Below, piece after piece: positions 1,595 through 30,598 of a DNA stretch of 64,000 nucleotides (its first letter is position 1; each line of letters starts with the position of its first letter). The stretch lies in the IMG/VR virus record IMGVR_UViG_3300022699_000278, positions 7,070-71,069 of that record; one strand, 5' to 3'. The notes under the pieces are model-generated. The model was not told where the DNA came from, made no database searches, and was given only the letters and a program-made list of their open reading frames with translations. Position numbers and translations under genes: made by a program. Source of the stretch: a virus.

Positions 1595-1623
1595 ATGTAC
1601 ACCAACTATACGTTATATGTAAT
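1595..1623 (-). other. attI/dif-like recombination site A
   Basis: ATTACATATAAC-GTATA-GTTGGTGTACAT: inverted arms with a 5-nt spacer, heading cassette array A. Confidence 0.65.
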
Positions 1624-1646
1624 GTACATGAGATACACCATTATTA

Positions 1647-1871
1647 TCAATGTCTTATGTTTGGGTATAGTTTTTTTGTATCTATGCCTTTTCTCTGACT
1701 TGCGCGTAACGCCACAATCTGTATTCCATGGTTTATGGTAGCCTGATTATTTTTGTTACCGCCAACAGAAGCAGATACATCCTCATAATATCTTTTCATA
1801 AACCTTGTCAGATTTCCATTAAAACCTTCAAGGGTATGACCACATTTAATTACTCTTTTCTTTTTTTCCAT
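1647..1871 (-). CDS. Hypothetical protein
   Basis: 74-aa ORF downstream of a TTGCGC-N17-TATATT promoter-like sequence. Confidence 0.5.
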   Translation of the reverse strand: MEKKKRVIKCGHTLEGFNGNLTRFMKRYYEDVSASVGGNKNNQATINHGIQIVALRASQRKGIDTKKLYPNIRH

Positions 1872-1906
1872 AGTACAAATATATACTTGTACATAAGTAG
1901 GCGCAA

Positions 1907-2500
1907 CTATTTTTTTGCAAGGATTATATAAATGCCATTGTAGTCACGTTTTCCAGTAAGCTGCAGGTCTGACTCGTACCCGTGCTCTTTCAACATATAC
2001 TTTAATTTGCTGGTATTCCAATGTGGTAGCGGATTGGCTCCAATTTCATCATGACCATATTTGAAAGGATCGCCACTTCTGGTGTGTATAACAACCTTGT
2101 TGCAGCGTTCAAAGACCGTATTTAGTTTTTTTATTTCGTCATCATTTAAGTGGTGCAATACATAGCTTGCTAAAAACAGATCAAACTCAATTTTATCCAG
2201 ATCAACAAACTCGAACATTTCATTTATCAGGGTAACATCTTTTCCTTCAAGGGTTACCTTCGATTGCTTGTAGTACTTTCTGTTCACCTCAATTCCGGTA
2301 TACCCGGCAATTATTCTGTATAAACATAGCGCATACATCCCTGCATTAGAACCAAGCTCAAGAACTTTAGCGCCCTTAAAGAAATCAATATTGTTTTCTA
2401 TCATCGGCAGTCTTTTCTTCAGTTTGTTGTATTTCTGGTATACCTTATCGCCCTTCTTCCAGTTCTTTGATATTTGCCGGTATTCTTTTTCGGTGATCAT
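1907..2500 (-). CDS. Class I SAM-dependent methyltransferase
   Basis: VLELGSNAG motif I, GIE motif II, FDLFLASYVLHHL; paralog of 7358-8518; ATGA coupling to the upstream ORF. Confidence 0.85.
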   Translation of the reverse strand: MITEKEYRQISKNWKKGDKVYQKYNKLKKRLPMIENNIDFFKGAKVLELGSNAGMYALCLYRIIAGYTGIEVNRKYYKQSKVTLEGKDVTLINEMFEFVDLDKIEFDLFLASYVLHHLNDDEIKKLNTVFERCNKVVIHTRSGDPFKYGHDEIGANPLPHWNTSKLKYMLKEHGYESDLQLTGKRDYNGIYIILAKK

Positions 2501-2691
2501 TTTACAGTTCCTATAATACAAACCATATCGTCCGGAAAGTTACAATCAGCACTTTCAAAGCTTATTTTCTCCATACCAAAACATTTGTCATCAGCAGCTA
2601 TTAAGTACTTCCATCCTCCACGTTCTTCATAATGCATCGGCTCTTTTGGCCCATCTACGTATCCATACCTATACTGATACTCATCTTTCAT
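2497..2691 (-). CDS. Hypothetical protein
   Basis: 64-aa ORF with ATGA overlap to the methyltransferase. Confidence 0.5.
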   Translation of the reverse strand: MKDEYQYRYGYVDGPKEPMHYEERGGWKYLIAADDKCFGMEKISFESADCNFPDDMVCIIGTVK

Positions 2692-2788
2692 GGGTGAAAC
2701 CCTACCGATCTATCGTTTGGCCTTGTAGACGTACACCTGCTTAGTATTTCATCTTTTGTGTATTTTATATATATATTTGATTGACTCA

Positions 2789-3052
2789 TTACCCTATTAA
2801 ATACGACTTAGAAAATCTTTTTTTTAAAAGCTTTTCCCTTTTCTTACCCTCAGTAGTTTCCCACCAGTCCTTATCGTATTCTTTATTATACTCCAAAAGT
2901 TTATATGACATTTTCTTCGCCATACGCTCAGCTTCTACAAGCTTTTTACGCACCCTTCTGTCATGTTTTTTGTCACCTTGGTGAAGATCATTTATTTCTC
3001 TGAGGACTTCGCAAAGAGTTCTTACCTTAGTTGCTCTTCGTAACGACATCAC
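2789..3052 (-). CDS. Hypothetical basic protein
   Basis: Overlaps the GT4 stop, operon-like. Confidence 0.6.
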   Translation of the reverse strand: MMSLRRATKVRTLCEVLREINDLHQGDKKHDRRVRKKLVEAERMAKKMSYKLLEYNKEYDKDWWETTEGKKREKLLKKRFSKSYLIG

Positions 3053-4011
3053 AGCGCCACAGCACTTTCTTTTTTAACGTCAATCAACACACTTTCAAAT
3101 GCTTTCTTATACTGCCTGGCAATAGTATCTATATGGATGTGTGCTGGCACAATCATCGTCTTCCTATATGACAAAAGCCCATCAAGTGCTTTTTCAACCA
3201 ATTCAGTATCTATTGGGGGTGGGCTGTTTTTCTGCAACGTTGGCTTTATTGGCTTACTGTCCAGTGGAAGTATTGCACCATACTCTTTTACTATTTCGGC
3301 GTTGCCGCCGATATTGCCTGATATAACAGGTGTCCCGGCAGCAAGAGCTTCAACAACAGCATTGTCACACCATGAAAACCAGCAGATGCTTACCATCACA
3401 TCTGCCATAACCAAGTATCGGCGCAGCAGCTTTTCCGAAACATCTCCTACATATTTAATCTGTTCTTTTGATTTTCTTTCTTCTCTTATTTTGCCACAAA
3501 ACCAGAAACACACATCGGAGTGTTTTTTTATATAATTCTCAGCAATACGAATCATTTCTCTCATCCGCTTATGGGGCCTGACTTTGCTGGATACATATCT
3601 TCCTGAGACTATAACATTCTTTGGGTACTCCGAATCCATTGGCTCAACTTTATAATCTTCAGGATTAGCTCCGTTATATATAATAAACTCCTTTTTGCCC
3701 CTAACTCCAAGTATCTTGGTTACCATGTCGTATGCGAATTTTGTCTGGTAGATAACACCGTCACTAGTTTTTATCGTGTGCTTTATCATTTTCCTGCGCC
3801 AATCGTATTTCTTATCCTTTTCCAGATGAATCCCGTCTATTCGAATCACTTTTCTGCCTTTAGGCTTTTTCTTCCAGTACGACAGCCCAAGTGTCAAATC
3901 TGGCTTGCTGGTGACTATTTCAACACCATTTCTCTCAAGTGCAGGAATAAGCCGTTGTATAAACTTGCTTTTCCCGGTTGAATTCTTCTCGTATTGTATA
4001 GCTATTTTCAT
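3049..4011 (-). CDS. Glycosyltransferase family 4 (GT-B)
   Basis: IIYNG, HKR, NAVVEALAAGTPVISGNIGGNAE (EX7E-type region). Confidence 0.9.
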   Translation of the reverse strand: MKIAIQYEKNSTGKSKFIQRLIPALERNGVEIVTSKPDLTLGLSYWKKKPKGRKVIRIDGIHLEKDKKYDWRRKMIKHTIKTSDGVIYQTKFAYDMVTKILGVRGKKEFIIYNGANPEDYKVEPMDSEYPKNVIVSGRYVSSKVRPHKRMREMIRIAENYIKKHSDVCFWFCGKIREERKSKEQIKYVGDVSEKLLRRYLVMADVMVSICWFSWCDNAVVEALAAGTPVISGNIGGNAEIVKEYGAILPLDSKPIKPTLQKNSPPPIDTELVEKALDGLLSYRKTMIVPAHIHIDTIARQYKKAFESVLIDVKKESAVAL

Positions 4012-4129
4012 ATGTCTATGCTCGTGATAGATACTAAGTCACTAACCTCAAGGTCTTCAAAGGAAGGTGTGAGCATCTCCAAAAACTTACCTTTCCCAAA
4101 TTCATTTAACTTATATTGAATGTGAAGTT

Positions 4130-4846
4130 TCAAAGAATACGTTCCTTGTAATAATTATAAAGTTTATTCCATTTATCATGAACAGTTTTGTTTTTTCTAC
4201 TACAATGCCAAATAATAGAATCATCAGAAAATTGATTATCATTATATTTTTTACCAAGTTCCTGAAAATCTATTTGGTCCTTAAATTTATTGTAACATTT
4301 CCACAAATATTTCTGGTCGTCATACCATTCCAAATGTCGTTCAAGTTTTTCATTCAATCGTTTCAACAAAGCTCGTGTTATATTACTATTCCCTAAAACA
4401 AATACCCCTTTCTGTAATTTTCTTTTGTCCGACTGATCAGGTTTATACATAATCTTCATTGTATTCGCTTTAACATTTTCCCACAACTCGTCAAGATTTC
4501 CTCTTACTATAATATCGACATCCATATGAGCAACTTTTGAATATCCTTCATTTAATGCATCTACCATTGGTGCCGTTCTTTTTGACATTATTGAATTACC
4601 ATAAACATGATTTTTGTATGTAGAAATATTTTTTTCAGATAATATTGAATCTCCATAAACATGGATTCTGCGAACTGTTATATTTTTGTAAACATTTTTT
4701 ATTTTTATACATGATTCTTCAGATAAATCATATGCATATACCAACACTTTTTCATCAAGAGCATTCTCGGAGATTGATTTTAACATAACGCACAATTGTT
4801 CAACATAATTACCATAATTGTTTATTTCCACAGTAATTATATTCAT
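4130..4846 (-). CDS. GT-A fold glycosyltransferase (GT8/GT77-like)
   Basis: MDVDIIVRG DxD motif, DDQKYL, C-terminal KYND...IIWH. Confidence 0.75.
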   Translation of the reverse strand: MNIITVEINNYGNYVEQLCVMLKSISENALDEKVLVYAYDLSEESCIKIKNVYKNITVRRIHVYGDSILSEKNISTYKNHVYGNSIMSKRTAPMVDALNEGYSKVAHMDVDIIVRGNLDELWENVKANTMKIMYKPDQSDKRKLQKGVFVLGNSNITRALLKRLNEKLERHLEWYDDQKYLWKCYNKFKDQIDFQELGKKYNDNQFSDDSIIWHCSRKNKTVHDKWNKLYNYYKERIL

Positions 4847-4874
4847 AGTAATATTTCTACCTTATTTTTTAGGT

Positions 4875-5633
4875 TCATATCGGAAACATCGTGTTTTCTC
4901 TGGTAATGCCCTTTTTTTCCATCTGTCGCAACCGCTTCTTCTGCAATTGTTTCGTTTCTTTATACCATTTATTATCAGCTTTTCTCTTCTTATGTTTCTC
5001 CTCCGAATGCTTCCGATAGAAAGCAACCGGAATATCAATCTTTTTCTTTTTGACGTGATTAAACGGCGAATCTGGATGTATCCCGAGGCGCATGCTCATT
5101 TCCTTGTCTTCTCCTGATCGCAGCCCTTCGTACCAGCCGCCGAATCGCTCAAACACTCTTCTCCTGTACATAACTGTCTGCGGATTTACCTCTGAGGGAT
5201 GTACTCTCAGTTTACGCATCTTCTGGCATGCCTCATAGTACATCAAATCACCACGTACTTCGAGCGCCTTACCCCATACAACATCTATTTTCGGGTGTTT
5301 ATCGAGGTATATTTTCTGCAACCTCAAAGAACCTGGCACACGCATGTCATCGGCATCGAGAAATGTAATGTAGTCTCCTTTAGATATTTTAAGCCCTATA
5401 TTCCTCGCCACCGAAACACCACCGTTCACATTCAAGGGTATATAATGTATGTTTCGTTCGGGAAATTTAAAAGGCCGGAAGATGTCGTTTACCACGTCCT
5501 TTGTTTGGTCGGTACTTGCATCGTCAACTATTATTACCTCTAAGCTGTCTTTGTCGAGTTCCCACACTACCGAATGAAACGCGCTCATAATGTATCTGGC
5601 ATAGTTATATGTCGGTATTATTACGCTAATCAT
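4875..5633 (-). CDS. Glycosyltransferase family 2
   Basis: ISVIIPTYN, IIVDDASTD, NGGVSVARNIGL, FLDADD, GED. Confidence 0.95.
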   Translation of the reverse strand: MISVIIPTYNYARYIMSAFHSVVWELDKDSLEVIIVDDASTDQTKDVVNDIFRPFKFPERNIHYIPLNVNGGVSVARNIGLKISKGDYITFLDADDMRVPGSLRLQKIYLDKHPKIDVVWGKALEVRGDLMYYEACQKMRKLRVHPSEVNPQTVMYRRRVFERFGGWYEGLRSGEDKEMSMRLGIHPDSPFNHVKKKKIDIPVAFYRKHSEEKHKKRKADNKWYKETKQLQKKRLRQMEKKGITRENTMFPI

Positions 5634-6184
5634 AGCATTCCCATAACTTTCTTCTCAAATTTACCGCCCTTGTGCGATCCCGGCTTGTTGTCCTCTGCAA
5701 TCTGAACCGGCACAAACTCCATTCCAACAGCATACATGGCAGCACACCTTCTGCCGCCATGGTATATTTCATATCCTGTAAGCCAGTCGGCAAGGTATTC
5801 AAACCGCGTCTTCCACAATGGTTCTGCAAGCACCAGCACCGGCTGTGCTGCATTACGGCTTTTGCTGAAGCCACGCTTCTTTATACTCTTGAGTATTTTA
5901 TACCTGGACCCAAAGATATGCTCCTTAATAGCGCTTTCAGTCCACTTCTTCATACCAAGCTTATACCTCCACCTGCGGTCCTCTGCAAATCGGCAATGCT
6001 TTAATACCGTCCAGTTCCGCCCGTGTTTAAGAAGCATCTGCGCACACTCCACCTGCGGACTCTTCGGAAGGCTCATGTCGTATCCCCATATATCGTGGTT
6101 TATCAGCTTAGGGATAAACTGATATTTCAGTTCACGCAGTGGAAGGCTTACCGGTTTTCCTTCGAGGAGGGCGTATTCACTCAT
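5630..6184 (-). CDS. ParB/Srx-like domain protein
   Basis: KSIKKRGF...PVLV...YEIYHGGRRCAAMYAVGMEFVPV resembles the ParB N-terminal G-x-x-R motif. Confidence 0.6.
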   Translation of the reverse strand: MSEYALLEGKPVSLPLRELKYQFIPKLINHDIWGYDMSLPKSPQVECAQMLLKHGRNWTVLKHCRFAEDRRWRYKLGMKKWTESAIKEHIFGSRYKILKSIKKRGFSKSRNAAQPVLVLAEPLWKTRFEYLADWLTGYEIYHGGRRCAAMYAVGMEFVPVQIAEDNKPGSHKGGKFEKKVMGML

Positions 6185-7122
6185 ATCAGCGCCCTGAAGA
6201 AGGTTAAATACTGTTTGGCAATATTCTGAATGTATAATTCCTTAGCCAAGCCCTTATCGTAGTTCCATGTCAATGATTCTTTCATGGCCTTTATAAGGAC
6301 TTCCTGATTTATCTTTGGTGGCTTGTTGAGATTTACCGGTCTGTATTTAAACGGTTTATCTTTCAATACCTTCCCGAATACCAGCAACTCATGCGTACCA
6401 CCCTGATCTGTGCATATTACCGGGAGCCCGGCCACTTGTGCCTCAACAACACTGTTCGGACATGCGTCCACATAGGTAAGATGTATCATCGCGTGGCACG
6501 ATCTATAATAAACCGCCAGTTTGTCATCTTTTACATTGTCCTCAAATATTATGTTCCCGTTGTTACCGTACTTCTTATTATACCCCAGAGTGTCGCCGCA
6601 AACATAAAGCGTACTCTTTGGAATTCCAGCTTCAAGAAACGCTCGTATAATTTGATTCAGACGTTTTTGTTTCAACCATACTCTCGTGCTTGCTAAAAAT
6701 ATTACCCGCTCCGGATCGGTTTTTATAAGTGGCTCTACACCATAATTCCGTGGGTCGGCACCGTTGAGTATCACTGTCTCCGGTTTGTTCGGTTTGCATA
6801 CAAGCTTGTGATAAATCTTTTGGGCGTAGAAGGACTGATAAACAACGGCGTCAGCCTTTTTAACTGAAAGCGCCTTTTCGTTGTTTATCTTACGCCAGTT
6901 CATATTGGTGTCAATATTTGCTGGCCCAACGCGGATAACCTGTACCTTGGCTTTTGAACCATAGTTCATCCTACCGATATTAAGAGCAATGTCCGCTTTG
7001 GCCTTCGAATCAGGAGTAACGTTTATACCCATTTCATGCCATGCTTTAACAAGGCGTTGGCAAAATTTACCTTTCCCGGTTTTCCCACGGGCGTAGTATT
7101 TTGGATTTACATGTATCTTCAC
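6181..7122 (-). CDS. Glycosyltransferase family 4 (GT-B)
   Basis: VILNG, QKR, DACPNSVVEAQVAGLPVICTDQGGTHE; paralog of 3049-4011. Confidence 0.9.
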   Translation of the reverse strand: MKIHVNPKYYARGKTGKGKFCQRLVKAWHEMGINVTPDSKAKADIALNIGRMNYGSKAKVQVIRVGPANIDTNMNWRKINNEKALSVKKADAVVYQSFYAQKIYHKLVCKPNKPETVILNGADPRNYGVEPLIKTDPERVIFLASTRVWLKQKRLNQIIRAFLEAGIPKSTLYVCGDTLGYNKKYGNNGNIIFEDNVKDDKLAVYYRSCHAMIHLTYVDACPNSVVEAQVAGLPVICTDQGGTHELLVFGKVLKDKPFKYRPVNLNKPPKINQEVLIKAMKESLTWNYDKGLAKELYIQNIAKQYLTFFRALI

Positions 7123-7128
7123 ATTTCC

Positions 7129-7728
7129 TCAATCAATATCACAGAGATACCACCGCTTTTCCTTTGAGTGCCACATCATATCTCCTATTTTGTAACTGCC
7201 GAACGTTTTTACACCGTGTTTTGCCTGTGTTCTTTTCGCCCATTTAACAAACTTCTTGTACCCTTCCGGCGAGTGATCGAGGTGTGAGTCTGCACCCCAA
7301 TCATACGGTATTCCATACATGTAGTCCTGCCACGCCTTTTCCATGGCAGGAATGTGCTCAGTCTTTATCGCATAAGCCTTCGCCTTGTGCAATGTTCTTT
7401 TGAACAGAAGGTTTATGTTCACCTGTACTATTTTCATTGGCTTTGGTGCTACGCCGAGTTCGTGGAGCTTTTGCCACTTTTTGAATATCTTTTTCACGTA
7501 CCGGAGCTTTTGTGCTTTTTTCCATGACAGGCTGTAATACACCTTCATCCCCACTATCCTGCTTTTTTGTACGTAGATTCCGACCCGTCCCTTTGGCAAC
7601 ATCTTTCCTTTGAGTAGTACCGCGTGGCTTCCCTTCAGAAACCCGTCCTTGCCATTGACGTGTACTCCGTCCTCGGGAGCTTTCATCTTTTTCCTCTCGA
7701 TGAACTTCAGCACTCCCTTTATCTCCAT
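7129..7728 (-). CDS. Putative kinase-like protein (RIO/Bud32/Kdo-kinase type fold)
   Basis: VGMKVY (Lys), LHELGVAPKP, terminal WYLCDID; SD GGAGG before ATG. Confidence 0.5.
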   Translation of the reverse strand: MEIKGVLKFIERKKMKAPEDGVHVNGKDGFLKGSHAVLLKGKMLPKGRVGIYVQKSRIVGMKVYYSLSWKKAQKLRYVKKIFKKWQKLHELGVAPKPMKIVQVNINLLFKRTLHKAKAYAIKTEHIPAMEKAWQDYMYGIPYDWGADSHLDHSPEGYKKFVKWAKRTQAKHGVKTFGSYKIGDMMWHSKEKRWYLCDID

Positions 7729-8518
7729 CCAGAGCCTCCTTGGTTTCTGCGTCTATGCTTTCCTGCATTGCCTTTTCCTCAATGCTCCTCATCTCTTCTT
7801 TGGTTGTCCCATTTTCTGCAGCAGTTTTTTTTACCGCCTTGGCACCCTCGGCCAATTCCTCCGTGATTTCTTTTGTGTATGTCGTCTTTTCAGGCTCAAC
7901 AAACCCCGGCTTCGTTCCGATCACAATATGGAATTTTTTGTCAGGCCCGAACTCCCACTTTGTCTCGAAGCCGTTTTTCTGCAGGTAGTTTATCACGCTG
8001 TTGTAATGCCAGAATGCATGGTTGTTGTGCTTTCGGCGACCTTTTTTGTTTCTTTTGGCATATCGACTCATTACAATGATCACATCAACTTTCGGCAGCA
8101 CGTTCTTCTGAAACATGTCCACCTCTTTGTCACTGAAGTGATAGAGAACATACGAAAGGAAAACCGCATCAACCGGTCGCGAAATAGTCCCTCGTGCAGT
8201 TCTCCGCATAAACGTTTTAACGCTCATGTTCATGAACTCAACGTCCTTGTTTTTAATTTGCTTTTTGATTTCCAGGGCCTGGTTATAATACCCATTCTCG
8301 CCCTCAACACCGGTATACGATTTTGCAATCTGAGCAATATGATACCCGGCGAGCCCGGCATTTGAGCCAACTTCAAGCACATTTTTCCCGGTAAACAGGG
8401 TGATATGCTTCAGCAGCGTAGGAAATCGAACAGTATACCTGTCGTATTTTTGGTATACCGTTCCGTGCTTTTTCCAGTCCTTTGAAAGTTCGTTGTATTG
8501 CTTTTTAGTCAGCAACAT
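7358..8518 (-). CDS. SAM-dependent methyltransferase with a long charged C-terminal tail
   Basis: VLEVGSNAG, GVE, LSYVLYHF; SD GAGGAG; tail overlaps the kinase-like gene by 371 nt. Confidence 0.8.
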   Translation of the reverse strand: MLLTKKQYNELSKDWKKHGTVYQKYDRYTVRFPTLLKHITLFTGKNVLEVGSNAGLAGYHIAQIAKSYTGVEGENGYYNQALEIKKQIKNKDVEFMNMSVKTFMRRTARGTISRPVDAVFLSYVLYHFSDKEVDMFQKNVLPKVDVIIVMSRYAKRNKKGRRKHNNHAFWHYNSVINYLQKNGFETKWEFGPDKKFHIVIGTKPGFVEPEKTTYTKEITEELAEGAKAVKKTAAENGTTKEEMRSIEEKAMQESIDAETKEALDGDKGSAEVHREEKDESSRGRSTRQWQGRVSEGKPRGTTQRKDVAKGTGRNLRTKKQDSGDEGVLQPVMEKSTKAPVREKDIQKVAKAPRTRRSTKANENSTGEHKPSVQKNIAQGEGLCDKD

Positions 8519-8529
8519 TGTATTCTCCT

Positions 8530-9477
8530 CTATTTTAATATGTTTACCAACCACATCATAGCCTGTTCTCGATTGCCTATTTTGCTTTTTATAACTTTAA
8601 TGTGTTCCTCGTTATCTAAATATACTGCATTTTTTATGGTTTTAATCGCCGATTTAACATTCAATGCCTTGTATTTCAAAGCAGTTTTCCCTGGTATACA
8701 GTGGTCGCTGCAGCCAGCCAGTGGTGCATCCGGGTATATTACCTTACACCCGCACAGTGCAGCCTCTATCGGTGGGTTATGTAGCCCTTCCTTTGTGCTT
8801 GTGGATACCCATGTCCCTATAGTATTATACATTTTTATCAGCTGCGAGTGTGAAGGGTTTTTTATAAACAGAACGAACCTGTCGTCAACAAAACGCCATA
8901 TTTTTTTATTCAAGTCATACCCATACCCAAAGTAGTTGTATTTATCACCAAGATTTTTAATCAGCTTCATTGCAAAATCAAAGTTTTTGCGTGGCTTGGT
9001 TGAAACCAGAAAACCAAGGCTCTTCGGGTTCCTTGCACCATTGTTGCTCCACTTGTCTATATCAACACCCTGATGTGCGATAGCCGTTTTTATACCGTGA
9101 GCAAGAAACCAGTCGTACAGGTTTTCACTGTTTACTATGACGTGAACCCTTCTGGCCTTTCTCAGAATATTAGCTTTTGACATTTGATGACTTTCAAGAA
9201 GCCTACACCAATAGTAGGCCCTTGCATTTTTTGGCTTTGTTTTTAACATGGGGCCAATGTCGCTTATTGAACATGCTATGCAAACATCTGTATCCGGGGG
9301 AATTCTTTTTAATGGTGGCTTATGCTTAATCCAAGTGTGCCTATCAGAATGAGTAACAATATGCGTTCTGTGTCCAAGCTTATTCAGAGTCTGTGTACAT
9401 AATATTATAGTTCGGCTGCCGCCACACTGGTTTAATCCACCATAATATGGATGCTGTGCACAGAAAGCTATTTTCAT
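8530..9477 (-). CDS. Glycosyltransferase family 4 (GT-B)
   Basis: GGSR N-terminal motif, RKN, EGLHNPPIEAALCG. Confidence 0.85.
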   Translation of the reverse strand: MKIAFCAQHPYYGGLNQCGGSRTIILCTQTLNKLGHRTHIVTHSDRHTWIKHKPPLKRIPPDTDVCIACSISDIGPMLKTKPKNARAYYWCRLLESHQMSKANILRKARRVHVIVNSENLYDWFLAHGIKTAIAHQGVDIDKWSNNGARNPKSLGFLVSTKPRKNFDFAMKLIKNLGDKYNYFGYGYDLNKKIWRFVDDRFVLFIKNPSHSQLIKMYNTIGTWVSTSTKEGLHNPPIEAALCGCKVIYPDAPLAGCSDHCIPGKTALKYKALNVKSAIKTIKNAVYLDNEEHIKVIKSKIGNREQAMMWLVNILK

Positions 9478-10700: not shown

Positions 10701-10809
10701 ATTAACAACATTTCCAATCTACAGAATTTTTATCGTTGTAGGCAATAAAATTTCGCCATTTTACTAAAACAAAAGACTGACAGACATTAAGAACAAAAGG
10801 AATTATAGT

Positions 10810-11076
10810 ATGACTGATGAACAATATTATAAAATTAAGTCCTTTGTTCTTTCTCTGTTTGAGAAAGAAGAACAGTTTTGGATTGAATCTCATAATTTTT
10901 CTGATTTATTTGACCTTTCTCACGGTTATTATCAAGAATTGATTGAACGTGTGACAAAAGAAGATCACCCCTTTTTGAATGACGCTCGTTGTAAAGACGA
11001 ATACGGCGACCCATCCGGCCAGATTCAGTTCTACCGGAAATTAGAAGAGGGTGGGAACCCTGTCCATTTACAATAG
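10810..11076 (+). CDS. Hypothetical protein, counter-oriented
   Basis: SD AAGGA; preceded by core-like GTTGTAGGCAAT at 10735; antisense to the distal part of ORF 10835-11182. Confidence 0.5.
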   Translation: MTDEQYYKIKSFVLSLFEKEEQFWIESHNFSDLFDLSHGYYQELIERVTKEDHPFLNDARCKDEYGDPSGQIQFYRKLEEGGNPVHLQ

Positions 11077-11362
11077 AATCTAAATCAAATTCAATACCAT
11101 TTAATTCAACATATACAGGAGCATCATCGTTCATAAATGTATCGAATTTATTTAATATCGATCTCAAAGTTCCATAGTTCATATAACAACTCCTAATGGC
11201 GGTACTTTCTATATGCGATCTCTGTTGACAAAAGTATTATGAACCCATTTTATCTAAAATCCAATTACCTATAATAGGTATAGCATATCCAATTGGGATA
11301 CAAATAATCATAGAAACAATAAATGGAACAAAAAACGCTATTAAATAAAGGATGATAACATT

Positions 11363-11857
11363 ATGAGTAGTAATACCCCAGAATGTGTAAATTTTCTCCC
11401 CATCATCAGCACATTTTTTGGTTCTTTCTTTGGTGTTATAATTGGTGCGATTTTGAACAATCGTTTTGTTATCAAGAGTACAGATTTGCATTTTTTTAAT
11501 ATCGCCGCTATTAAGTTTAGAAAAGAAATCCACCCTTTTTATAGTGAAGTTCGAGAAATGCTCTTGAAAGATAACAAAGGAATGATCGGCAACAATGAAA
11601 CATGGTCTTATAGAAGAATGCAACAAATCCTTCCCGAGCATAGAAAAATTATTGAAGAATTTATTTTCTCTATTCCTATTAACCATAGGCATAGCTTCGA
11701 CATAATTGCCGACACATACTGTCCCCAAAAAGAAACATATACAGAAGATGATATTAATGCGATGTATTGGTCTGGAGTTGATATGAAAGTTGAAATGTCT
11801 ATAAGAAATAAAATTAAAGAAAAAATTGAACAGATGATGAATTTTAAAATCACGTGA
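11363..11857 (+). CDS. Hypothetical protein with an N-terminal TM helix (inverted cassette)
   Basis: FLPIISTFFGSFFGVIIGAIL; AT-rich; followed by an attC-like site at 11921-12005. Confidence 0.7.
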   Translation: MSSNTPECVNFLPIISTFFGSFFGVIIGAILNNRFVIKSTDLHFFNIAAIKFRKEIHPFYSEVREMLLKDNKGMIGNNETWSYRRMQQILPEHRKIIEEFIFSIPINHRHSFDIIADTYCPQKETYTEDDINAMYWSGVDMKVEMSIRNKIKEKIEQMMNFKIT

Positions 11858-11920
11858 TCTTTTTATTTTGTTAATTCCAATGCTAATAAAGCATGACAAG
11901 AAGTAAAATGGCGAAAAATT

Positions 11921-12005
11921 ACAGCCTACAACACGCAAAGGCAGGCTCGAAGACTCGCCCAAACGCTGACGCGCTTCTGCATTTGCGGAACCGTTGTTAA
12001 GTAAT
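11921..12005 (+). repeat. attC-like hairpin, short and non-coding
   Basis: ACAGCCTACAAC-A-CGCAAAGGCAG ... CTGCATTTGCG-GAACC-GTTGTTAAGTAAT. Confidence 0.75.
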
Positions 12006-12357: not shown

Positions 12358-12386
12358 ATTTACACCAACTTATTGTTATCAGAACC
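12358..12386 (-). other. attI/dif-like recombination site B
   Basis: GGTTCTGATAAC-AATAA-GTTGGTGTAAAT. Confidence 0.6.
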
Positions 12387-15183: not shown

Positions 15184-15355
15184 ATTGCAATCAACGTTCT
15201 CAGGCGCCCGCCCGAAGTTGCTGATATACAAATTTACAAAACTGTGATAATACGCGCATGTCTCGACCATCAGCACACGTTGACTTATCTTCCACATACT
15301 TGTGAACCATTTCCTTAACGTCAGGCAATTTTGGACTGCCTGTGTTGTTAGACGT
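15184..15355 (-). repeat. attC-like hairpin C1 with a coding loop
   Basis: ACGTCTAACAAC-A-CAGGCAGTCCAAAATTGC ... GCAACTTCGGGCGGGCGCCTG-AGAAC-GTTGATTGCAAT. Confidence 0.75.
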
Positions 15356-15547: not shown

Positions 15548-15576
15548 ATGTTTTACAACTACTTGCTATGCGTAAT
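15548..15576 (-). other. attI/dif-like recombination site C
   Basis: ATTACGCATAGC-AAGTA-GTTGTAAAACAT; first 21 nt differ by 1 nt from site D at 30570. Confidence 0.7.
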
Positions 15577-16061: not shown

Positions 16062-16158
16062 AGAATATCTTTATGGTTGATTTTATACAACCAGTGATTT
16101 TATGTAACGGACAAGAGTTTTTATGTAACACTAATATACTACATGTGTAATATGAATG

Positions 16159-20684: not shown

Positions 20685-21144
20685 TCAGTAGTCCTACATC
20701 GATGGTATTTATTTCGTCGATATTCCCCCCGTATACTTCAGCAACTTTGTCATTATACGCCTTGGCAGCGCTCATTTCTGCCACAAAATATCCTACAACC
20801 ATCCCCTTGAACTCTGTTTTCCACAGCCCATAGTACGCATCCCATTTTACGCCATTAAAATCACTTCTACCGTTACACCCATACCATTTAACCTGTTCTC
20901 CCCGCCAGTTCATCATTTTCATGTTGGCACGCTGCATATTGAGAGGATTGCCGTCCCTGAATGCCATTTTATAGTCTTCTGATATACCGGCAATCACATT
21001 GTGAAGATAGACAAACTCCTGAATCCCGGTTTGTGGACTGGACAGATGACGCCTGGCATACTTTAATCCACTGGTATTTGAAGTCAAAGTCCACTTATAT
21101 GGTGACAACCATGTATAAGAATCGTCATCCAAGAGAGCAAACAC
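20677..21144 (-). CDS. Degenerate HNH plus AP2-domain protein
   Basis: YLHNVI..FRDGNPLNMQRANM; SDFNGVKW...VGYF..EMSAAKAYN. Confidence 0.7.
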   Translation of the reverse strand: MFALLDDDSYTWLSPYKWTLTSNTSGLKYARRHLSSPQTGIQEFVYLHNVIAGISEDYKMAFRDGNPLNMQRANMKMMNWRGEQVKWYGCNGRSDFNGVKWDAYYGLWKTEFKGMVVGYFVAEMSAAKAYNDKVAEVYGGNIDEINTIDVGLLNA

Positions 21145-21248
21145 GTTCTGTGATAATAGTAGCGGCTTAATACTCGATTAACTCCTTACGACATTCTTTT
21201 GTTCAACGGCTACACCTTATGTGTAATGTACAAAAGGCTGAGCTATCC

Positions 21249-23633: not shown

Positions 23634-23681
23634 TATGTTGGAGTTACACGGCTAATCACAATCAACAAGGAGGACAGTATG
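23631..23681 (+). repeat. Early-region intergenic repeat, copy 1
   Basis: TAGTATGTTGGAGTTACACGGCTAATCACAATC...GGAGGACAGTATG; other copies at 24322-24379 and 25581-25605, 3' half at 23015-23048. Confidence 0.9.
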
Positions 23682-24024: not shown

Positions 24025-24324
24025 ATGACAATCAGGATCAAAACTATAGAATCAGTCGAAAAAATAGGTGGCAGAATTATTGCTGATACAACTGTGTGGG
24101 ATTATCACAATAGCGGTCTAGGAGGCAAGGGATCAAATCTACGCAAAACAGTTAATGACATTTTTGCAAAAAATCCTGACATTACAACGATTTTGGCTAT
24201 ATGCGGTAAAAAAGGCAGGAGTCAACATAGCGCAACTAATGTACATGTTTTTGACGTTACCGATGTAGATACTGATAAGATATGGTTATACGACAAAAGT
24301 GCAAGACTTTTTCAACGGCAATAG
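24025..24324 (+). CDS. Hypothetical early protein
   Basis: SD AAGGAGG. Confidence 0.75.
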   Translation: MTIRIKTIESVEKIGGRIIADTTVWDYHNSGLGGKGSNLRKTVNDIFAKNPDITTILAICGKKGRSQHSATNVHVFDVTDVDTDKIWLYDKSARLFQRQ

Positions 24325-24379
24325 TATGTTGGAGTTACACAGCTAATCACAATCACAACAAAATCAGGAGGACAGTATG
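24322..24379 (+). repeat. Early-region intergenic repeat, copy 2
   Basis: TAGTATGTTGGAGTTACACAGCTAATCACAATC...CAGGAGGACAGTATG. Confidence 0.9.
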
Positions 24380-25579: not shown

Positions 25580-25683
25580 ATAGTATGTTGGAGTTGCACG
25601 GCTAAATAGTATGAAAATGTATTTTTCTACGGGCTGGAACTAAATTGTTCCGGCCCTTTTGTTTTTATTATATATTACTTCGT

Positions 25684-26406
25684 ATGGAATCAAACATCAC
25701 CGCTGTAATACTCGCCGCTGGAATGGGAAAACGATTCGGGAGCGGGAATGATAAACCAAAAAGTATGTTGAAGGTGCACGGCAAAACGATCTTGGGTAAT
25801 ACTATCAATTTGCTTCACCGCCATTCAATTACAAACATCGTCGTTGTCGTCGGAGATAAACGGGATTACATTATCGACGAGTATGGCGATAATGTGCTGT
25901 TCGTTACAAATCCCAAGTACCGGACAACCAATACCGCTAAAAGTCTACTTAAAGCCCTTGAAAAACTTAACCTGAATTCTGATGTCATATGGATTAACGG
26001 TGATGTCATGATGGAATCCGCCGTTGTTGATCGTATAGTATCCTGCGGGGAAAATGCCGTCTGCGTGAACACATCCAAGTGCGGGCCTGAAGAAGTTAAG
26101 TACACCACCACCATCGATGGCGAGGGCAACTATATAAAACACCTGTCAAAGCATGTGAAAAAACCCGAAGGGGAAGCTGTCGGTGTCAATAGAATAAATG
26201 CACGCCACATCAGCAAGCTTATCTCTTTTCTGGAAAAATGTAAAAAACAGGACTATTTCGAAGCTGCTATAGAAAAGATAAGTCTTTCCGCTCTTACGGA
26301 CTCTCGATTTATTGCTCTGGATGTATCTGATTGTAATATTATCGAGATAGACTTCCACGAGGACCTGGTTGCCGCTGAAAAAATGTTTCGAGATTGCGAA
26401 AACTGA
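25684..26406 (+). CDS. LicC-like (phosphocholine/phospho-X) cytidylyltransferase
   Basis: AVILAAGMGKRF, KPKSML, NPKYRTTNTAKSL, INGDV, YFE, EIDFHEDL. Confidence 0.85.
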   Translation: MESNITAVILAAGMGKRFGSGNDKPKSMLKVHGKTILGNTINLLHRHSITNIVVVVGDKRDYIIDEYGDNVLFVTNPKYRTTNTAKSLLKALEKLNLNSDVIWINGDVMMESAVVDRIVSCGENAVCVNTSKCGPEEVKYTTTIDGEGNYIKHLSKHVKKPEGEAVGVNRINARHISKLISFLEKCKKQDYFEAAIEKISLSALTDSRFIALDVSDCNIIEIDFHEDLVAAEKMFRDCEN

Positions 26407-28058: not shown

Positions 28059-29782
28059 ATATTTTTGATCAATATCTATCCTATGGGTTATCTGTAATTC
28101 CCTGTAATGACAAGAAACCGGCCATAAGCGGATGGAAACAGTTTCAGGCTACTCCACCTACCCCTGAACAAGCAAAAGCCTTTAATGGCCATCAAATCGC
28201 GTGTATTTGCGGATATGTATCGGGCGGCTTAATCTGTCTCGATTTCGATATAAAAAATGGGAACAAATATGATGACTGGATTTTGCTGGTAAATAATACG
28301 AAACCTGAAATACTCAGTGATATAGTATGTGAGAAGTCTCCGAGCGGTGGGTACCATATAATTTTCAGATCCAATAAAAAAATTCCGAACTTAAAGCTCG
28401 CTATAAATAAAACAGGGCAATGCACAATAGAAACCAGGGGAGAGGGTGGATATTTTATTTCATACCCTTCACCAAATTATCATCTGGAATTTGGTGATTT
28501 TGGGAAAATAAAAAAACTATCCGACGAAGATACAGAGCTACTCATAAACTGTGCAAAGGCGCAAACGGAAAAAAGTGAAGACGTCATTGTCACTCAAACA
28601 CAAACGATTTCAACAGGTTTATCACCCTTTGATGATTACGATTCAAGGGAAACACCAACATCGATTCTCGAAAACCACGGGTGGAGTACTGTAGCAAAAC
28701 GTGGAGAAACCATTTATCTATGTCGGCCAGGAAAAGATAAAAAGAATATTAGTGCATCATGGAATAATGTACCGGGCAGATTTTATTGTTTCTCGACATC
28801 AACGATATTCAAAAACAATACATCGTACAAGCCAAGCGCCGTATACTCCATTCTTGAACACAATGGAGATTTTTCTGCAGCTGCAAAAGAACTAATATCC
28901 AGGGGATACGGAAGCAAAACAGAAAAAAAGGTAACTGCTAAAATAATAAATCCATCAAATATCAGAAATAAAATATTTGACATAAAACAGTATGGGTATA
29001 AAAGAGGTAGAACAACAGGATGGCCAACACTCGACAAACTGTACTCAGTAACAAAAAGGCAGTTTACAGTTATTACCGGCGTTCCGTCTTCCGGTAAAAG
29101 TGAGTTCATGGATGCACTTGCAATAAATTTAATGATTAAGGAAGGGTGGAAGTTTGCTGTATTTTCCCCGGAAAACTACCCGGAAGAAATGCATTATCAC
29201 AAACTAATTGAAAAAATATGCGGGGATGAACTGCGGAATATACCAGATGAAAATATTGAAGTTGCCATAAAAACAATTGGAGAACACTTCTTTTTTATTG
29301 ACGCACTCGAAAGAGACATTGACTTAGATAGTATTCTGCAGCAAACAGAAGCGTTGATTGAAAAGAAAAAGGTTGACGCCCTTATAATAGACCCATGGAA
29401 CGAAATAGAATTATCTCGACCAACCAATGTAAATGATTCAGATTTTATCGGAAACTGTCTAAGAACATGCAGAAAGTTTGCCAGAAAATTTAACATTCAT
29501 TTATTTATCATTGCACATCCGACAAAATTGCAAAAAGGCAAAGACGGCAAATATCCAATACCTGAACTATGGGATATCGCCGGAACTGCTCACTGGAGAA
29601 ATAAAGCCGATAACGGAATTTGCATTCACCGAGACTTTGAAGAAGATAGAACGTACATCTATGTTCAAAAAATAAAATTTAAATATTGCGGACGGCAAGG
29701 GGAAACATGGTTTACATATGAAGAAAAAAGTGGTAGGTATATTGATGGTGGCGGAACTGTTTCTGATCACTGGTCTGGTTGA
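28055..29782 (+). CDS. Bifunctional Prim-Pol fused to a DnaB/Twinkle-like SF4 helicase
   Basis: GLSVIPC..KKPA, CLDFD, SPSGGYH, IETRGEGGY; TGVPSSGKS, IIDPWN, AHPTK. Confidence 0.92.
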   Translation: MNIFDQYLSYGLSVIPCNDKKPAISGWKQFQATPPTPEQAKAFNGHQIACICGYVSGGLICLDFDIKNGNKYDDWILLVNNTKPEILSDIVCEKSPSGGYHIIFRSNKKIPNLKLAINKTGQCTIETRGEGGYFISYPSPNYHLEFGDFGKIKKLSDEDTELLINCAKAQTEKSEDVIVTQTQTISTGLSPFDDYDSRETPTSILENHGWSTVAKRGETIYLCRPGKDKKNISASWNNVPGRFYCFSTSTIFKNNTSYKPSAVYSILEHNGDFSAAAKELISRGYGSKTEKKVTAKIINPSNIRNKIFDIKQYGYKRGRTTGWPTLDKLYSVTKRQFTVITGVPSSGKSEFMDALAINLMIKEGWKFAVFSPENYPEEMHYHKLIEKICGDELRNIPDENIEVAIKTIGEHFFFIDALERDIDLDSILQQTEALIEKKKVDALIIDPWNEIELSRPTNVNDSDFIGNCLRTCRKFARKFNIHLFIIAHPTKLQKGKDGKYPIPELWDIAGTAHWRNKADNGICIHRDFEEDRTYIYVQKIKFKYCGRQGETWFTYEEKSGRYIDGGGTVSDHWSG

Positions 29783-29994
29783 TAAAATTATTATAATTCT
29801 GAAGGTAATAACAAGAATGGTAACCAAAAAAGAAGCACAATGGTAGAGTTAGCTGATATTTTAAGCAAGGCTGAACACCTTAAAAAGAGAGATTACTCTG
29901 TGTATAATTCGTTAAAGCAGGAAATAAGCAAAATGAATTTACCGGCAGATAGTTACGAATATGCAATAATGAAACTTTCTGAAATATTGGAGGT

Positions 29995-30198
29995 GTGATG
30001 AATAAAACAAACATCTTAGATTTCCCGGAAAAAACCGACTGGCTTCCGATTGTATCCGATTACGTCGTTACCTACAGGGATGGCGACAATTTCAAGGCTG
30101 TCAAACTCACCGCAGAGTCAATTGCGGAAATACCGGAAATGTTTTATTCGTTAGAAAAGACCTGTAAAAATATTATTTCGATTGTTTTGGTGAAATAG
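29995..30198 (+). CDS. Hypothetical protein
   Basis: SD GGAGG. Confidence 0.55.
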   Translation: MMNKTNILDFPEKTDWLPIVSDYVVTYRDGDNFKAVKLTAESIAEIPEMFYSLEKTCKNIISIVLVK

Positions 30199-30248
30199 GC
30201 TGCATTGTCGGGAATTATGTGTTATATTACTTATCATGATAGGGATAA

Positions 30249-30512
30249 TTGAAATTTATAAATGTGAATGCGATAAATGCGGTCACGAGTGGACATCCAG
30301 ATCGGGAAAAATCCCGGTCGCGTGTCCGGTGTGTAAATCGAGAAAATGGAACGAATTATCAAAAGGTTCTACTCGCAAGAAACAGAATAAAGTTGCAGCA
30401 TAAAACGTATCTGTATGAAGGTATGAAAAATATTATTCTAGCAAATGATTTTACCGTATCGCAATTCATGTTCGGGTGCACTGCGATGGCAATTGAAGCA
30501 ATGAATAAATGA
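30249..30512 (+). CDS. Hypothetical protein
   Basis: ORF co-oriented with the replication operon. Confidence 0.45.
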   Translation: MKFINVNAINAVTSGHPDREKSRSRVRCVNRENGTNYQKVLLARNRIKLQHKTYLYEGMKNIILANDFTVSQFMFGCTAMAIEAMNK

Positions 30513-30569
30513 CATCTCGAATACATTACCAACAAGGACAGGTTGATTTTATTTAACTTACGCAGGGCC

Positions 30570-30598
30570 ATTGCGCATAGCAAGTAGTTGGCCAAAAT
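30570..30598 (+). other. attI/dif-like recombination site D
   Basis: ATTGCGCATAGC-AAGTA-GTTGGCCAAAAT; heads the largest array. Confidence 0.7.

What the first reader, a model, noticed from the sequence alone, without database searches (positions are those of the whole stretch)
1595..30598. Four attI-like array heads that resemble dif sites with a 7-bp core
Seen: ATTACATATAAC-GTATA-GTTGGTGTACAT (1595-1623), GGTTCTGATAAC-AATAA-GTTGGTGTAAAT (12358-12386), ATTACGCATAGC-AAGTA-GTTGTAAAACAT (15548-15576) and ATTGCGCATAGC-AAGTA-GTTGGCCAAAAT (30570-30598). Each is intergenic and sits immediately 5' of an array, in the direction of transcription. Established: attI1 has L and R boxes 5 nt apart, and E. 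coli dif is GGTGCGCATAA-N6-TTATGTTAAAT. These sites read as 11-7-11 with similar arms. Inference: landing pads for a Xer/IntI-like recombinase, placed inside transcribed operons so cassettes need no promoter of their own.
Basis: partly seen in the sequence, partly recalled or inferred. Interest (0 to 1): 0.72.

Follow-up and report, generated by a model that had tools for sequence, protein, structure and literature searches.

The report
Entry junctions of phage gene-cassette arrays
The four sites are real and mark where rows of small swappable gene cassettes begin in a phage genome, much as in bacterial integrons, but they are not dif-like sites.

Summary
All four 29-bp sequences are present as quoted. 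Sites 1-3 lie on the minus strand, and each site is intergenic, 23-48 nt upstream of a gene. They share 14 invariant columns, and sites 3 and 4 match at 20 of 21 bases.

The likeness to dif is at chance level and arm symmetry is weak.

The right arm (G|TTRnnnnnAAT) is the general boundary motif of integron-type cassettes. Downstream genes end in folded attC-like sites of the form xxxxAAC, 1-2 nt, covarying stem, loop, stem, 4-5 nt, GTT. In 32 of 102 cassettes across nine phage-like contigs, the 7-mer before the stem is the exact reverse complement of that cassette's own first 7 nt. Controls gave 5 and 2. This is the signature of a crossover at G|TT.

The four sites are the first junctions of such arrays and lack the full hairpin. 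This phage (93% complete) has no tyrosine recombinase. In one relative, a Xer/IntI-like recombinase gene stops 3 nt before the first junction.

So "attI-like entry site" is plausible but unproven, and "dif-like" is not supported. Phage attC clusters are already published. This site variant was not in the papers I opened. Earlier scan notes describe similar arrays beside short Xer-like recombinases on other DNA, none on this DNA.

The parts
1595..1623 (-). Site 1 (head): ...ATATAAC-GTATA-G|TTGGTGTACAT. First junction of a minus-strand cassette row.
   Evidence: No significant fold (z 0.24). The cassette model scores it 9.7 bits, E 4.1, and on the opposite strand. Similar heads occur in L255 (ACGTATA|GTTGGTGT) and L253 (ACATAACGTCTA|GTTG).
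1253..1402 (-). attC-like site ending the first cassette after site 1: R'' CACCAAC (1402-1396), stem CAGGCA/TGCCTG, spacer aggga, junction G at 1259.
   Evidence: R'' is the exact reverse complement of the cassette start GTTGGTG at site 1.
12358..12386 (-). Site 2 (head): ...TGATAAC-AATAA-G|TTGGTGTAAAT, 23 nt before the ATG at 12335.
   Evidence: No fold (z 0.31). Model score 11.7 bits, E 1.4. Its cassette ends in a degenerate complement ATTTACGCAAGC-g-GTTAACGATAAT at 12119.
10735..12004 (+). Cassette in inverted orientation inside the minus-strand block. It starts GTTGTAGGCAAT at 10735, holds plus-strand ORFs 10810-11076 and 11363-11857, and has an attC-like site at 11926-12004 (R'' CTACAAC, the complement of its own start).
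   Evidence: (inverted repeat I2). Model score 51.1 bits (seed sequence). Strand composition shifts at 10-12 kb.
15548..15576 (-). Site 3 (head): ATTACGCATAGC-AAGTA-G|TTGTAAAACAT. It lies inside a compact hairpin (15554-15597) closed by CAAC/GTTG.
   Evidence: (z -2.28 on the top strand, -2.64 on the bottom strand). Similarity to site 4 is confined to 22 nt, and the flanking genes are unrelated.
15184..15223 (-). 3' arm and junction (G at 15195, GTTGATTGCAAT) ending the cassette that follows site 3.
   Evidence: 9.6 bits, weak. It is paralogous to the 1259 site.
30570..30598 (+). Site 4 (head): ATTGCGCATAGC-AAGTA-G|TTGGCCAAAAT. First junction of the plus-strand array.
   Evidence: z -2.08; 8.7 bits, E 6.8.
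30587..32939 (+). Array of six single-ORF cassettes with junction G at 30587, 30908, 31539, 31928, 32216, 32722 and 32928. Cassette B encodes a DNA methyltransferase (30941-31564).
30852..30919 (+). attC-like site of cassette A (GGCTAAC...aaccc-GTTGTAC).
   Evidence: 31.9 bits, E 2.3e-5, not a seed sequence.
31780..31939 (+). Long-loop attC-like site of cassette C (R'' ACACAAC, stem CATGTTG/CAACATG, junction 31928).
32064..32227 (+). Long-loop attC-like site of cassette D (CTGTAAC-ac-AGGTTAAA...TTTAACCT-aaacc-GTTATAG).
32656..32733 (+). attC-like site of cassette E (GCACAAC-a-AGTGCTAAAAG...CTTTTAGCACT-gctcc-GTTGGTG).
   Evidence: 60.9 bits, seed sequence.
16078..16117 (-).
   Evidence: It is also listed as a sigma-70-like GTTACA-17-TAAAAT site.
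21197..21236 (-). Head-like copy (TTGTACATTACACATAAGGTGTAGCC|GTTGAAC) upstream of ORF 20677-21144 and the large terminase gene. No cassette follows it.
1..33 (-). 5' part (R'' GCCTAAC at 33-27) of an attC-like site whose junction GTTGGTGTAAAT lies 23 nt before the window start.
   Evidence: L002:7035-7102, 27.8 bits, E 2e-4, not a seed sequence.

Best explanation
The four sites are the promoter-proximal end junctions ('heads') of integron-type gene-cassette arrays in a 71-kb phage.

Shown:
- The right arm G|TTRnnnnnAAT is the generic cassette boundary.
- Each downstream cassette is one ORF. It starts about 45 nt before its ATG and ends in a folded attC-like site: R'' xxxxAAC, 1-2 nt, a 6-12 bp covarying stem, a loop of 12-136 nt, the second stem arm, 4-5 nt, then G.
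- R'' complements the cassette's own first 7 nt, as expected if cassettes circularise and recombine at G|TT.
- The heads lack the 5' arm of such a site. Their left part is array-external DNA of two recurrent kinds: xATAAC-N5-GTT in sites 1 and 2, and CATTRCGCATAGCAAGTA-GTT in sites 3 and 4.

Inferred: the heads are, or once were, the double-stranded target where a tyrosine recombinase of the Xer/IntI clade placed the first cassette. That would make them attI- or attG-like. In this phage the enzyme would come in trans from a host or co-infecting element. Cassettes are then read from the surrounding operon.
For: Cassette structure:
- 32 of 102 consecutive junction pairs in nine contigs hold the exact 7-mer reverse complement of their own start in their last 15-220 nt. 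Only 5 hold the complement of the adjacent end junction, and 2 hold it at a control position.
- In a second count, 22 of 50 cassettes matched their own start perfectly against 3 of 50 for the end junction. None of 2000 permutations reached the observed mean.
- Spacer geometry is (1-2, 4-6) in 24 of the 33 listed hits.
- On 16 sites the stem is 87.9% paired, against 60.2% in shuffles (0 of 500 reach it) and 30-40% when slid. All 11 stem pairs show changes on both sides. These seeds were chosen for having stems.
- A covariance model finds 26 further non-seed sites at E<=0.01 in relatives. All 40 hits are on the array strand. In this genome it finds 3 non-seed sites.
- Mismatches in stems are A.C 7 against G.T 2, so the bottom DNA strand folds better. 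The same bias is reported for attC sites in PMC5027507 (passages read).

Heads:
- The model scores them only 8.7-11.7 bits (E>1), site 1 only on the opposite strand, and site 3 is not listed.
- No upstream partner exists for their left boxes, apart from two unconvincing single matches.
- The block shared by sites 3 and 4 is 22 nt, in otherwise unrelated contexts.
- Site-1-type heads recur in two unrelated contigs.

Recombinase: in G002 a 268-aa Xer/IntI-like gene ends 3 nt before the first junction GTTGTGTGGAAAT. That cassette's R'' is ACACAAC.

Precedent: phages carry attC clusters without an integrase, and IntI1 recombines them (PMC9892861, section 3.4 read). IntI also inserts cassettes at double-stranded genomic sites with a minimal GWT consensus (bioRxiv 10.1101/2022.09.11.507474, passages read).
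Against: - No tyrosine recombinase in this phage (0 candidates for PF00589; record 93% complete). None in G004 (96% complete) or G006 (98%).
- The recombinase link rests on one relative. Its homologues could not be placed in context.
- No close relative was found, so no empty or filled head could be compared.
- The simple junction pattern is not enriched across this genome as a whole: 9 sense and 5 antisense hits, against 7.6 per strand in shuffles.
- The sites differ from canonical attC. The 5' arm spacer is 1-2 nt, not 5-6. Only 23 of 35 sites lie within 57-141 bp. By eye, only about 4 of the 33 listed R'' boxes fit RYYYAAC fully.
- Site 3 folds into a hairpin, so it may be a small attC-like site rather than a double-stranded pad.
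- The left-arm motif also precedes the terminase genes, where no cassette follows.
- A conserved AT-rich leader after each junction is not a feature of classical cassettes.
Confidence: 0.55

Rival explanations
1. The heads are only decayed or truncated attC-like sites: the 3' half of the site of a former upstream cassette. They have no dedicated role as landing pads. Their mutual likeness reflects common descent of the site family.
For: - Site 3 is a compact CAAC...GTTG hairpin, and site 4 looks like a decayed copy of it.
- GTACATTRC in sites 1 and 3 matches the true 3' stem arm GTACATTGCC of the full site at the window start.
- Collapsed sites exist inside the array, for example GTATAAC-ACAG-GTTGGGT at 31539.
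- The attG preprint notes that folded attC sites are easily deleted by replication slippage.
Against: - The left boxes have no complementary cassette start upstream, except one chance-level 7-mer 1721 nt away for site 1 and a non-GTT match for site 3.
- The 22-nt block of sites 3 and 4 and the ACGTATA|GTTGG head were found in no full attC-like site of this genome or the relatives.
Confidence: 0.22
2. The sites are expression signals rather than recombination sites: promoters, operators or RNA-processing sites at the start of sub-operons. The repeated cassette structure is then a by-product of shuffling between repeated regulatory modules.
For: - The 29 bp equal 6+17+6. One extra copy is listed as GTTACA-17-TAAAAT, TTGATA-18-TACATT overlaps site 1, and TTGTAA-17-TATATT starts in the right arm of site 3.
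- All copies are co-oriented with the genes, 23-48 nt before a start codon.
- A copy of the left-arm motif precedes the terminase operon.
- A conserved AT-rich box and Shine-Dalgarno sequence follow each junction at a fixed distance.
- Recalled, not read: T4-type phages shuffle ORFs between promoter/stem-loop cassettes (PeSL), and T7 and SP82 have RNase III sites between genes.
Against: - Sigma-70-like matches in the region are no more frequent than in shuffles: 53 against 47.5, and 47 against 43.7.
- The -10 positions lack the conserved A at position 2 in sites 1 and 2.
- The alternative -35 reading would start transcripts inside or after the Shine-Dalgarno sequence at sites 2 and 3 (sequence).
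- Regulatory modules do not predict R'' complementing each cassette's own start.
- Stem wobble favours the bottom strand, not the mRNA strand.
- No Rfam family matches in the window.
Confidence: 0.15
3. The sites are dif-like XerC/D sites used for dimer resolution or for integration by host Xer, as in IMEX phages.
For: Sites 3 and 4 contain TRCGCATA, as in the XerC arm quoted in the finding. Matches to the quoted dif arms are 12-15 of 22.
Against: - Such matches are as common in shuffled sequence: 566 windows against 556.
- The arms are not inverted repeats (4-5 of 11).
- There are at least four copies on both strands, each at a cassette boundary.
Confidence: 0.03

Closest known systems
CALINs (clusters of attC sites lacking an integron integrase) in phage genomes (Qi et al. 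2023, PMC9892861; outline and section 3.4 read)
   Same: Same-strand single-ORF cassettes, each ending in a folded site with AAC...GTT ends. There is no integrase in the phage. DNA methyltransferase cassettes are present. Inverted sites occur, and GTTRRRY-like motifs stand at the array borders.
   Different: - The arrays are longer: 6 cassettes here and up to 13 junctions in 5 kb in L314.
- The 5' arm spacer is 1-2 nt instead of 5-6.
- The boundary motif is extended (C|GTTRnnnnnAAT) and is followed by a conserved leader.
- The site arms often lie inside coding sequence.
- The sites were not tested with IntegronFinder or HattCI, nor by recombination assay.
Integron attI site
   Same: It is the first junction of the array. 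The crossover triplet GTT is followed by the first cassette. Sites 1 and 2 are unfolded double-stranded sites. Cassettes are read from upstream transcription. In G002 the junction abuts a recombinase gene.
   Different: There is no intI in this phage. There are several heads per genome, on both strands. In G002 the recombinase is co-oriented with the array and falls below the integron-integrase cut-offs. DR1/DR2-type accessory sites were not identified.
attG sites, genomic secondary insertion sites of integron cassettes (bioRxiv 10.1101/2022.09.11.507474; passages read)
   Same: Double-stranded targets outside an integron platform, with little more than G-W-T conserved. The authors describe them as closer to dif-type core sites. 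Inserted cassettes are expressed from nearby promoters.
   Different: The heads here share 14-22 nt motifs, far more than GWT. No insertion data exist for them.
dif / XerCD sites
   Same: The overall 11-N-11 layout, and a GCGCATA stretch in sites 3 and 4.
   Different: The similarity is at chance level, there is no dyad symmetry, and there are many copies.
PeSL promoter/stem-loop cassettes of T4-type phages (recalled, not read)
   Same: Repeated intergenic modules with stem-loops that flank small accessory ORFs in hyperplastic phage regions.
   Different: PeSL repeats are conserved in sequence and act through homologous recombination. Here the stems covary, and R'' matches each cassette's own start.

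Membership tests
dif / Xer core site | Two about 11-bp arms that are imperfect inverted repeats around a 6-8 bp centre and match the dif consensus. | tested here: not met
   Dyad matches are 4, 4, 4 and 5 of 11 against a genome mean of 2.78. Matches to the dif arms are 12-15 of 22, as frequent in shuffles.
dif / Xer core site | A single site per replicon. | tested here: not met
   Four quoted copies plus further head-like copies.
integron attI | Adjacent to an integron-integrase gene. | tested here: not met
   There is no PF00589 match in the 71-kb genome. In relative G002 a Xer-like gene abuts the first junction, but it scores 125.5 bits against a cut-off of 265 for TIGR02249.
integron attI | R box with the G|TT crossover, followed directly by the first cassette. 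| tested here: met
   The first cassettes after sites 1, 3 and 4 carry R'' complementary to their start at 4/4, 3/4 and 3/4 variable bases.
integron attI | Recombined as double-stranded DNA, with accessory integrase-binding repeats (DR1, DR2). | tested here: inconclusive
   Sites 1 and 2 do not fold, but sites 3 and 4 fold moderately. No repeats were identified. Binding is not testable here.
attC site (downstream elements) | Inverse core sites R''(...AAC) and R'(GTT...), with the crossover at G|TT, so that R'' matches the cassette's own 5' end. | tested here: met
   32 of 102 cassettes, against controls of 5 and 2. 22 of 50 against 3 of 50.
attC site (downstream elements) | L''/L' pairing conserved in structure, not in sequence. 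| tested here: met
   87.9% paired against 60.2% in shuffles. 11 of 11 stem pairs have double changes (seeds were pre-selected for stems). The model recovers 26 non-seed sites.
attC site (downstream elements) | Unpaired central spacer of 5-6 nt on each arm (PMC5027507). | tested here: not met
   Spacers are (1,5) x10, (2,5) x8, (4,8) x6 and (1,4) x3, so the 5' arm is about 4 nt shorter.
attC site (downstream elements) | Length of 57-141 bp. | tested here: inconclusive
   23 of 35 sites lie within the range. The median is 89 and the range 46-174.
attC site (downstream elements) | Bottom strand folds better (more G:T pairs on the bottom strand). | tested here: inconclusive
   A.C 7 against G.T 2 on the top strand. 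The direction is right but the numbers are small.
attC site (downstream elements) | Called by the IntegronFinder or HattCI attC models, and recombined by IntI. | not testable with these tools
   Neither model is available here.
sigma-70-type promoter | TTGACA-like and TATAAT-like hexamers 16-18 nt apart, in register with the site. | tested here: inconclusive
   None of the four 29-mers is listed in register. The nearest listings are 1650->1621 and 15558->15530. Overall counts equal the shuffles.

The most novel reading that the evidence does not exclude
A distinct gene-capture system of phages. Cassettes carry a variant attC site, with a one-sided spacer, an extended GTTRnnnnnAAT core and their own translation leader. 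A short Xer-like recombinase lacking the integron-integrase signature moves them. They enter at several conserved landing pads (the four sites) placed inside phage operons, so that lytic-type phages can swap accessory genes such as methyltransferases without carrying the enzyme themselves.
Probability: 0.35. Interest if true: 0.85.

Novelty: new variant of a known kind. Interest (0 to 1): 0.62.

Why it matters
Integron-style cassette exchange has been reported in only a few phages. Here a whole group of uncultured phages carries dense arrays: nine contigs of 5 to 467 kb, with up to 13 junctions in 5 kb.

The recombination-site variant differs from canonical attC in its spacer geometry. I could not test whether the standard attC models would call it.

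If the heads are true entry sites, phage operons contain defined, programmable slots for accessory genes. That would explain hyperplastic regions, and it gives a testable route for gene flow between phages and hosts.

The finding also provides a clean sequence signature for finding such cassettes: R'' equals the reverse complement of the cassette's own start.

Tried and rejected
- Near-identity and protein searches of the phage collection found no relative, or only distant terminases.
- Protein-seeded locus searches gave one mosaic relative (L001), a 3.5-kb fragment (L123) and otherwise nothing.
- The 17-mer shared by sites 3 and 4 has no exact match in viral contigs.
- The 18-mer scan of bacterial genomes gave 58 loci, of which only L314 holds an array.
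- Unanchored duplex energies did not separate real sites from shuffles.
- A loose stem search (8 bp with one mismatch) gave counts no higher than the controls.
- The recombinase of G002 found only itself in viral contigs. In bacterial genomes it found only relatives of 36% identity or less, with no arrays beside them.
- Contigs with arrays share almost no alignable DNA, so indel breakpoints could not be mapped.
- Sequencing runs: none was listed, and no RNA holder was listed.
- Rfam gave no match.
- Scan notes hold nothing on this genome or on look-alike DNA.
The RYYYAAC count is therefore by eye.
- One protein-family call failed on a wrong coordinate and was not re-sent.
- Considered and set aside: Bacteroidetes-type promoters, SPO1-late-type promoters, boxA-like antitermination sites and IS200/IS605-type guide pairing. 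For none of these was there a matching enzyme or a consistent register.

Full report
**Where the window lies.** The window is bases 7070-71069 of a 71,069-bp virus record, estimated 93% complete. Genes run on the minus strand from 1 to about 23000, on the plus strand to about 33540, and on the minus strand again after that.

Annotation shows a tailed phage. It encodes terminase, portal, a major-head-like protein, tail fibres, an amidase, Erf, an exonuclease, NinB, RecU-like and DnaD-like proteins, a primase-helicase and a DNA methyltransferase. It also carries many glycosyl- and methyltransferases. No recombinase, sigma factor or RNA polymerase was recognised among the ORFs scanned. A six-frame search for PF00589 found no candidate. 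The phage has no near relative in the phage collection.

**The observation.** The four 29-mers are exactly as quoted. The first three are written as the reverse complement, so they lie on the minus strand, which is the sense strand there. All four are intergenic and stand 23-48 nt before a start codon.
- They share 14 invariant columns, and pairwise identity is 16-24 of 29.
- The 21-mer of sites 3 and 4 occurs twice where 0.02 is expected.
- The similarity between sites 3 and 4 is a discrete 22-nt block ending at GTTG, and the genes on either side are unrelated.
The left-arm motif TTGTACATTACRCATAR recurs at 16078-16117 and 21197-21236. The exact right arm GTTGGTGTAAAT recurs at 32722-32733 and 23 nt before the window start.

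**The dif comparison fails.** Against the dif arms printed in the finding, the sites match 12-15 of 22 positions. The genome has 566 windows with 13 or more matches, and shuffles average 556. Arm-to-arm symmetry is 4-5 of 11, against a background mean of 2.78, and 30% of all windows reach 4.

**What the right arm is.** In a mosaic relative (L001, Erf 75% identical), the same motif stands after almost every small gene. Its partner sequence lies 50-150 nt upstream. The layout is (Y)AAC, 1-2 nt, a stem, a loop, the complementary stem, 4-5 nt, then GTT. The stems differ in sequence from copy to copy but stay complementary.

The window has the same structure:
- a six-cassette plus-strand array behind site 4 (junction G at 30587, 30908, 31539, 31928, 32216, 32722 and 32928);
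- the cassette behind site 1, ending at 1259;
- the cassette behind site 3, ending at 15195;
- a cassette in inverted orientation at 10735-12004, with plus-strand ORFs inside the minus-strand block.

A scan for an 18-mer from one site family brought in six distinct further viral contigs with dense one-strand arrays (L256 nearly duplicates L254), and a scan of bacterial genomes added one contig binned to an Omnitrophota genome.

**The decisive signature.** In integrons the crossover falls at G|TT. Each cassette therefore carries its own TTRRRY at its 5' end, and its R'' box complements that sequence, not the next junction.

I tested this without reference to stems. Of 102 consecutive junction pairs in nine contigs, 32 contain the exact 7-mer reverse complement of their own start in their last 15-220 nt. 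About 1.3 would be expected from length alone. Only 5 contain the complement of the adjacent end junction, and 2 contain it at a control position. A second count gave 22 of 50 perfect matches to the own start against 3 of 50 to the end junction, and none of 2000 permutations reached the observed mean.

Directly after these R'' boxes the stem starts, with spacer geometry (1-2, 4-6), in 24 of the 33 listed hits.

Further support:
- On 16 aligned sites the stem is 87.9% paired. Shuffles give 60.2% (0 of 500 reach the observed value) and slid partners give 30-40%. All 11 pairs show compensatory changes on both sides. These seeds were picked for having stems.
- A covariance model built from them recovers 26 non-seed sites at E<=0.01 in the relatives, and all 40 hits lie on the array strand.
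- In this genome the model finds three non-seed sites: 30852-30919, the site at the window start, and L002:6590-6681 on the plus strand.
- Stem mismatches are A.C 7 against G.T 2 on the coding strand. The bottom DNA strand therefore folds better than the mRNA strand, as reported for attC sites (PMC5027507, passages read).

**How these sites differ from canonical attC.**
- The 5' arm spacer is 1-2 nt. PMC5027507 gives 5-6 nt on each arm.
- 23 of 35 sites fall within 57-141 bp.
- The boundary motif extends to C|GTTRnnnnnAAT. An AT-rich box and a Shine-Dalgarno sequence follow at a fixed distance, with the ATG near +45.
- In one small-protein family the site arms are themselves coding. R''-L'' encodes TNTGSPK, and L' encodes LRAGA followed by the stop codon.

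**What the four sites are.** They are the first junctions of such rows.
- The cassette model gives them only 8.7-11.7 bits with E>1, finds site 1 only on the opposite strand, and does not list site 3.
- Sites 1 and 2 do not fold (z 0.24 and 0.31). Site 3 is a compact CAAC...GTTG hairpin (z -2.3 and -2.6). Site 4 folds moderately (z -2.1).
- Their left boxes have no complementary cassette start upstream, apart from one chance-level hit for site 1 and a non-GTT match for site 3. So they do not look like collapsed sites of a preceding cassette.
- Sites 1 and 2 read xATAAC-N5-GTTGG, that is, an inverted AAC/GTT pair around a 5-nt spacer.
- Heads of the same kind open arrays in L255 (ACGTATA|GTTGGTGT) and L253 (ACATAACGTCTA|GTTG), although these contigs share no alignable DNA with the window.

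**A recombinase at a head.** The provirus record G002 (92% complete) encodes a 268-aa tyrosine recombinase. Its best family matches are XerA (130 bits), integron integrase TIGR02249 (125.5 bits, cut-off 265), XerC and XerD, all below their cut-offs. The gene ends 3 nt before the first junction GTTGTGTGGAAAT, and the R'' box of that cassette is ACACAAC. The gene is co-oriented with the array.

Homologues of 43-100% identity lie on contigs of up to about 50 kb, but their context could not be read. Distant relatives in bacterial genomes have no such arrays beside them. G004 (96% complete) and G006 (98%) have arrays but no tyrosine recombinase.

**Reading.** The boundary role of the sites and the integron-type nature of the cassettes are shown. 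The idea that the heads act as entry sites for a Xer/IntI-clade enzyme supplied in trans is inferred. Three rivals remain:
- The heads are decayed attC-like remnants. Site 3 is a hairpin, and GTACATTRC in sites 1 and 3 matches the real stem arm of the site at the window start.
- The heads are regulatory sites. The 29 bp equal 6+17+6, a copy precedes the terminase genes, and a leader is conserved. Against this, promoter-like matches are no more frequent than in shuffles, and regulatory modules do not predict the own-start complementarity.
- The heads are dif-like sites. This is rejected, as above.

The copy at 21197-21236, which no cassette follows, fits either an empty pad or a regulatory site. 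I could not tell which.

**What is known.** Qi et al. 2023 (PMC9892861; outline and section 3.4 read) reported 17 attC clusters without an integrase in phages, methyltransferase cassettes among them, and recombination of phage attC sites by IntI1. A preprint (10.1101/2022.09.11.507474; passages read) shows IntI inserting cassettes at double-stranded genomic attG sites with a GWT consensus, which the authors call closer to dif-type sites.

My two literature searches did not surface this site variant or conserved multiple heads. I did not search specifically for them, so I make no claim that they are unpublished.

Earlier notes of this scan describe integron-like arrays next to short Xer-like recombinases in other genomes, mainly ultra-small bacteria. 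I treated these as leads only. None concerns this DNA.

**Verdict.** The attI-like reading is plausible and the dif-like reading is not. The underlying system is a new variant of a known kind.

Noticed in passing
window 63793-64000 and L002 about 70-790: A 54-bp tandem repeat (units containing CCACCGTCAATTCC) sits at both ends of the contig. The two ends probably join into one array, which suggests a circularly permuted or terminally redundant genome.
   Followed up: no
window 204-9477, 16159-17762, 25645-26406; L002 3811-4755: An unusually rich set of sugar and modification genes: at least six glycosyltransferases, several methyltransferases, a radical-SAM protein and a MobA-like nucleotidyltransferase. 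This suggests glycan synthesis, or modification of the virion or its DNA.
   Followed up: no
window 23630-23664, 24321-24355, 25580-25614: Three near-identical upstream elements (ATAGTATGTTGGAGTTACACGGCTAATCACAATCA, followed by an SD sequence and ATG) precede plus-strand genes. This is a separate repeat family that also contains GTTGGAG but has no attC-like hairpin.
   Followed up: partly
window 1264-1548, 15200-15517; L001 17215-17493; L249 3760-4017: A small protein family (...NTGSPK...LRAGA, then stop) whose conserved motifs coincide with the R''-L'' and L' arms of the recombination-like site. The site is embedded in the coding sequence.
   Followed up: partly
L002 6590-6681 (+), that is 388-479 nt before the window start: The cassette model finds a full attC-like site (26.9 bits, E 3.5e-4) on the plus strand, opposite to the local genes. 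This may be a second inverted cassette.
   Followed up: no
window 18618-20684: The large terminase ORF is 688 aa, but family matches cover only residues 43-462. About 220 C-terminal residues are unexplained.
   Followed up: no
window 31542-31557: The junction between cassettes B and C (GTTGGGTGCAATGCCGCCC followed by TTTTT) is also listed as an intrinsic-terminator-like hairpin.
   Followed up: no
A4 alignment columns 40-67 (loops of the attC-like sites): The loops are not random. Many carry CCCAAAT or GGCACAT, and an (A/C)AC(T/G)TC box sits directly before the 3' stem arm.
   Followed up: no
L255 (G006): One array lies in a 466,729-bp record classed as a provirus (98% complete) that has no tyrosine recombinase. 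It may be a very large phage or a host fragment.
   Followed up: no
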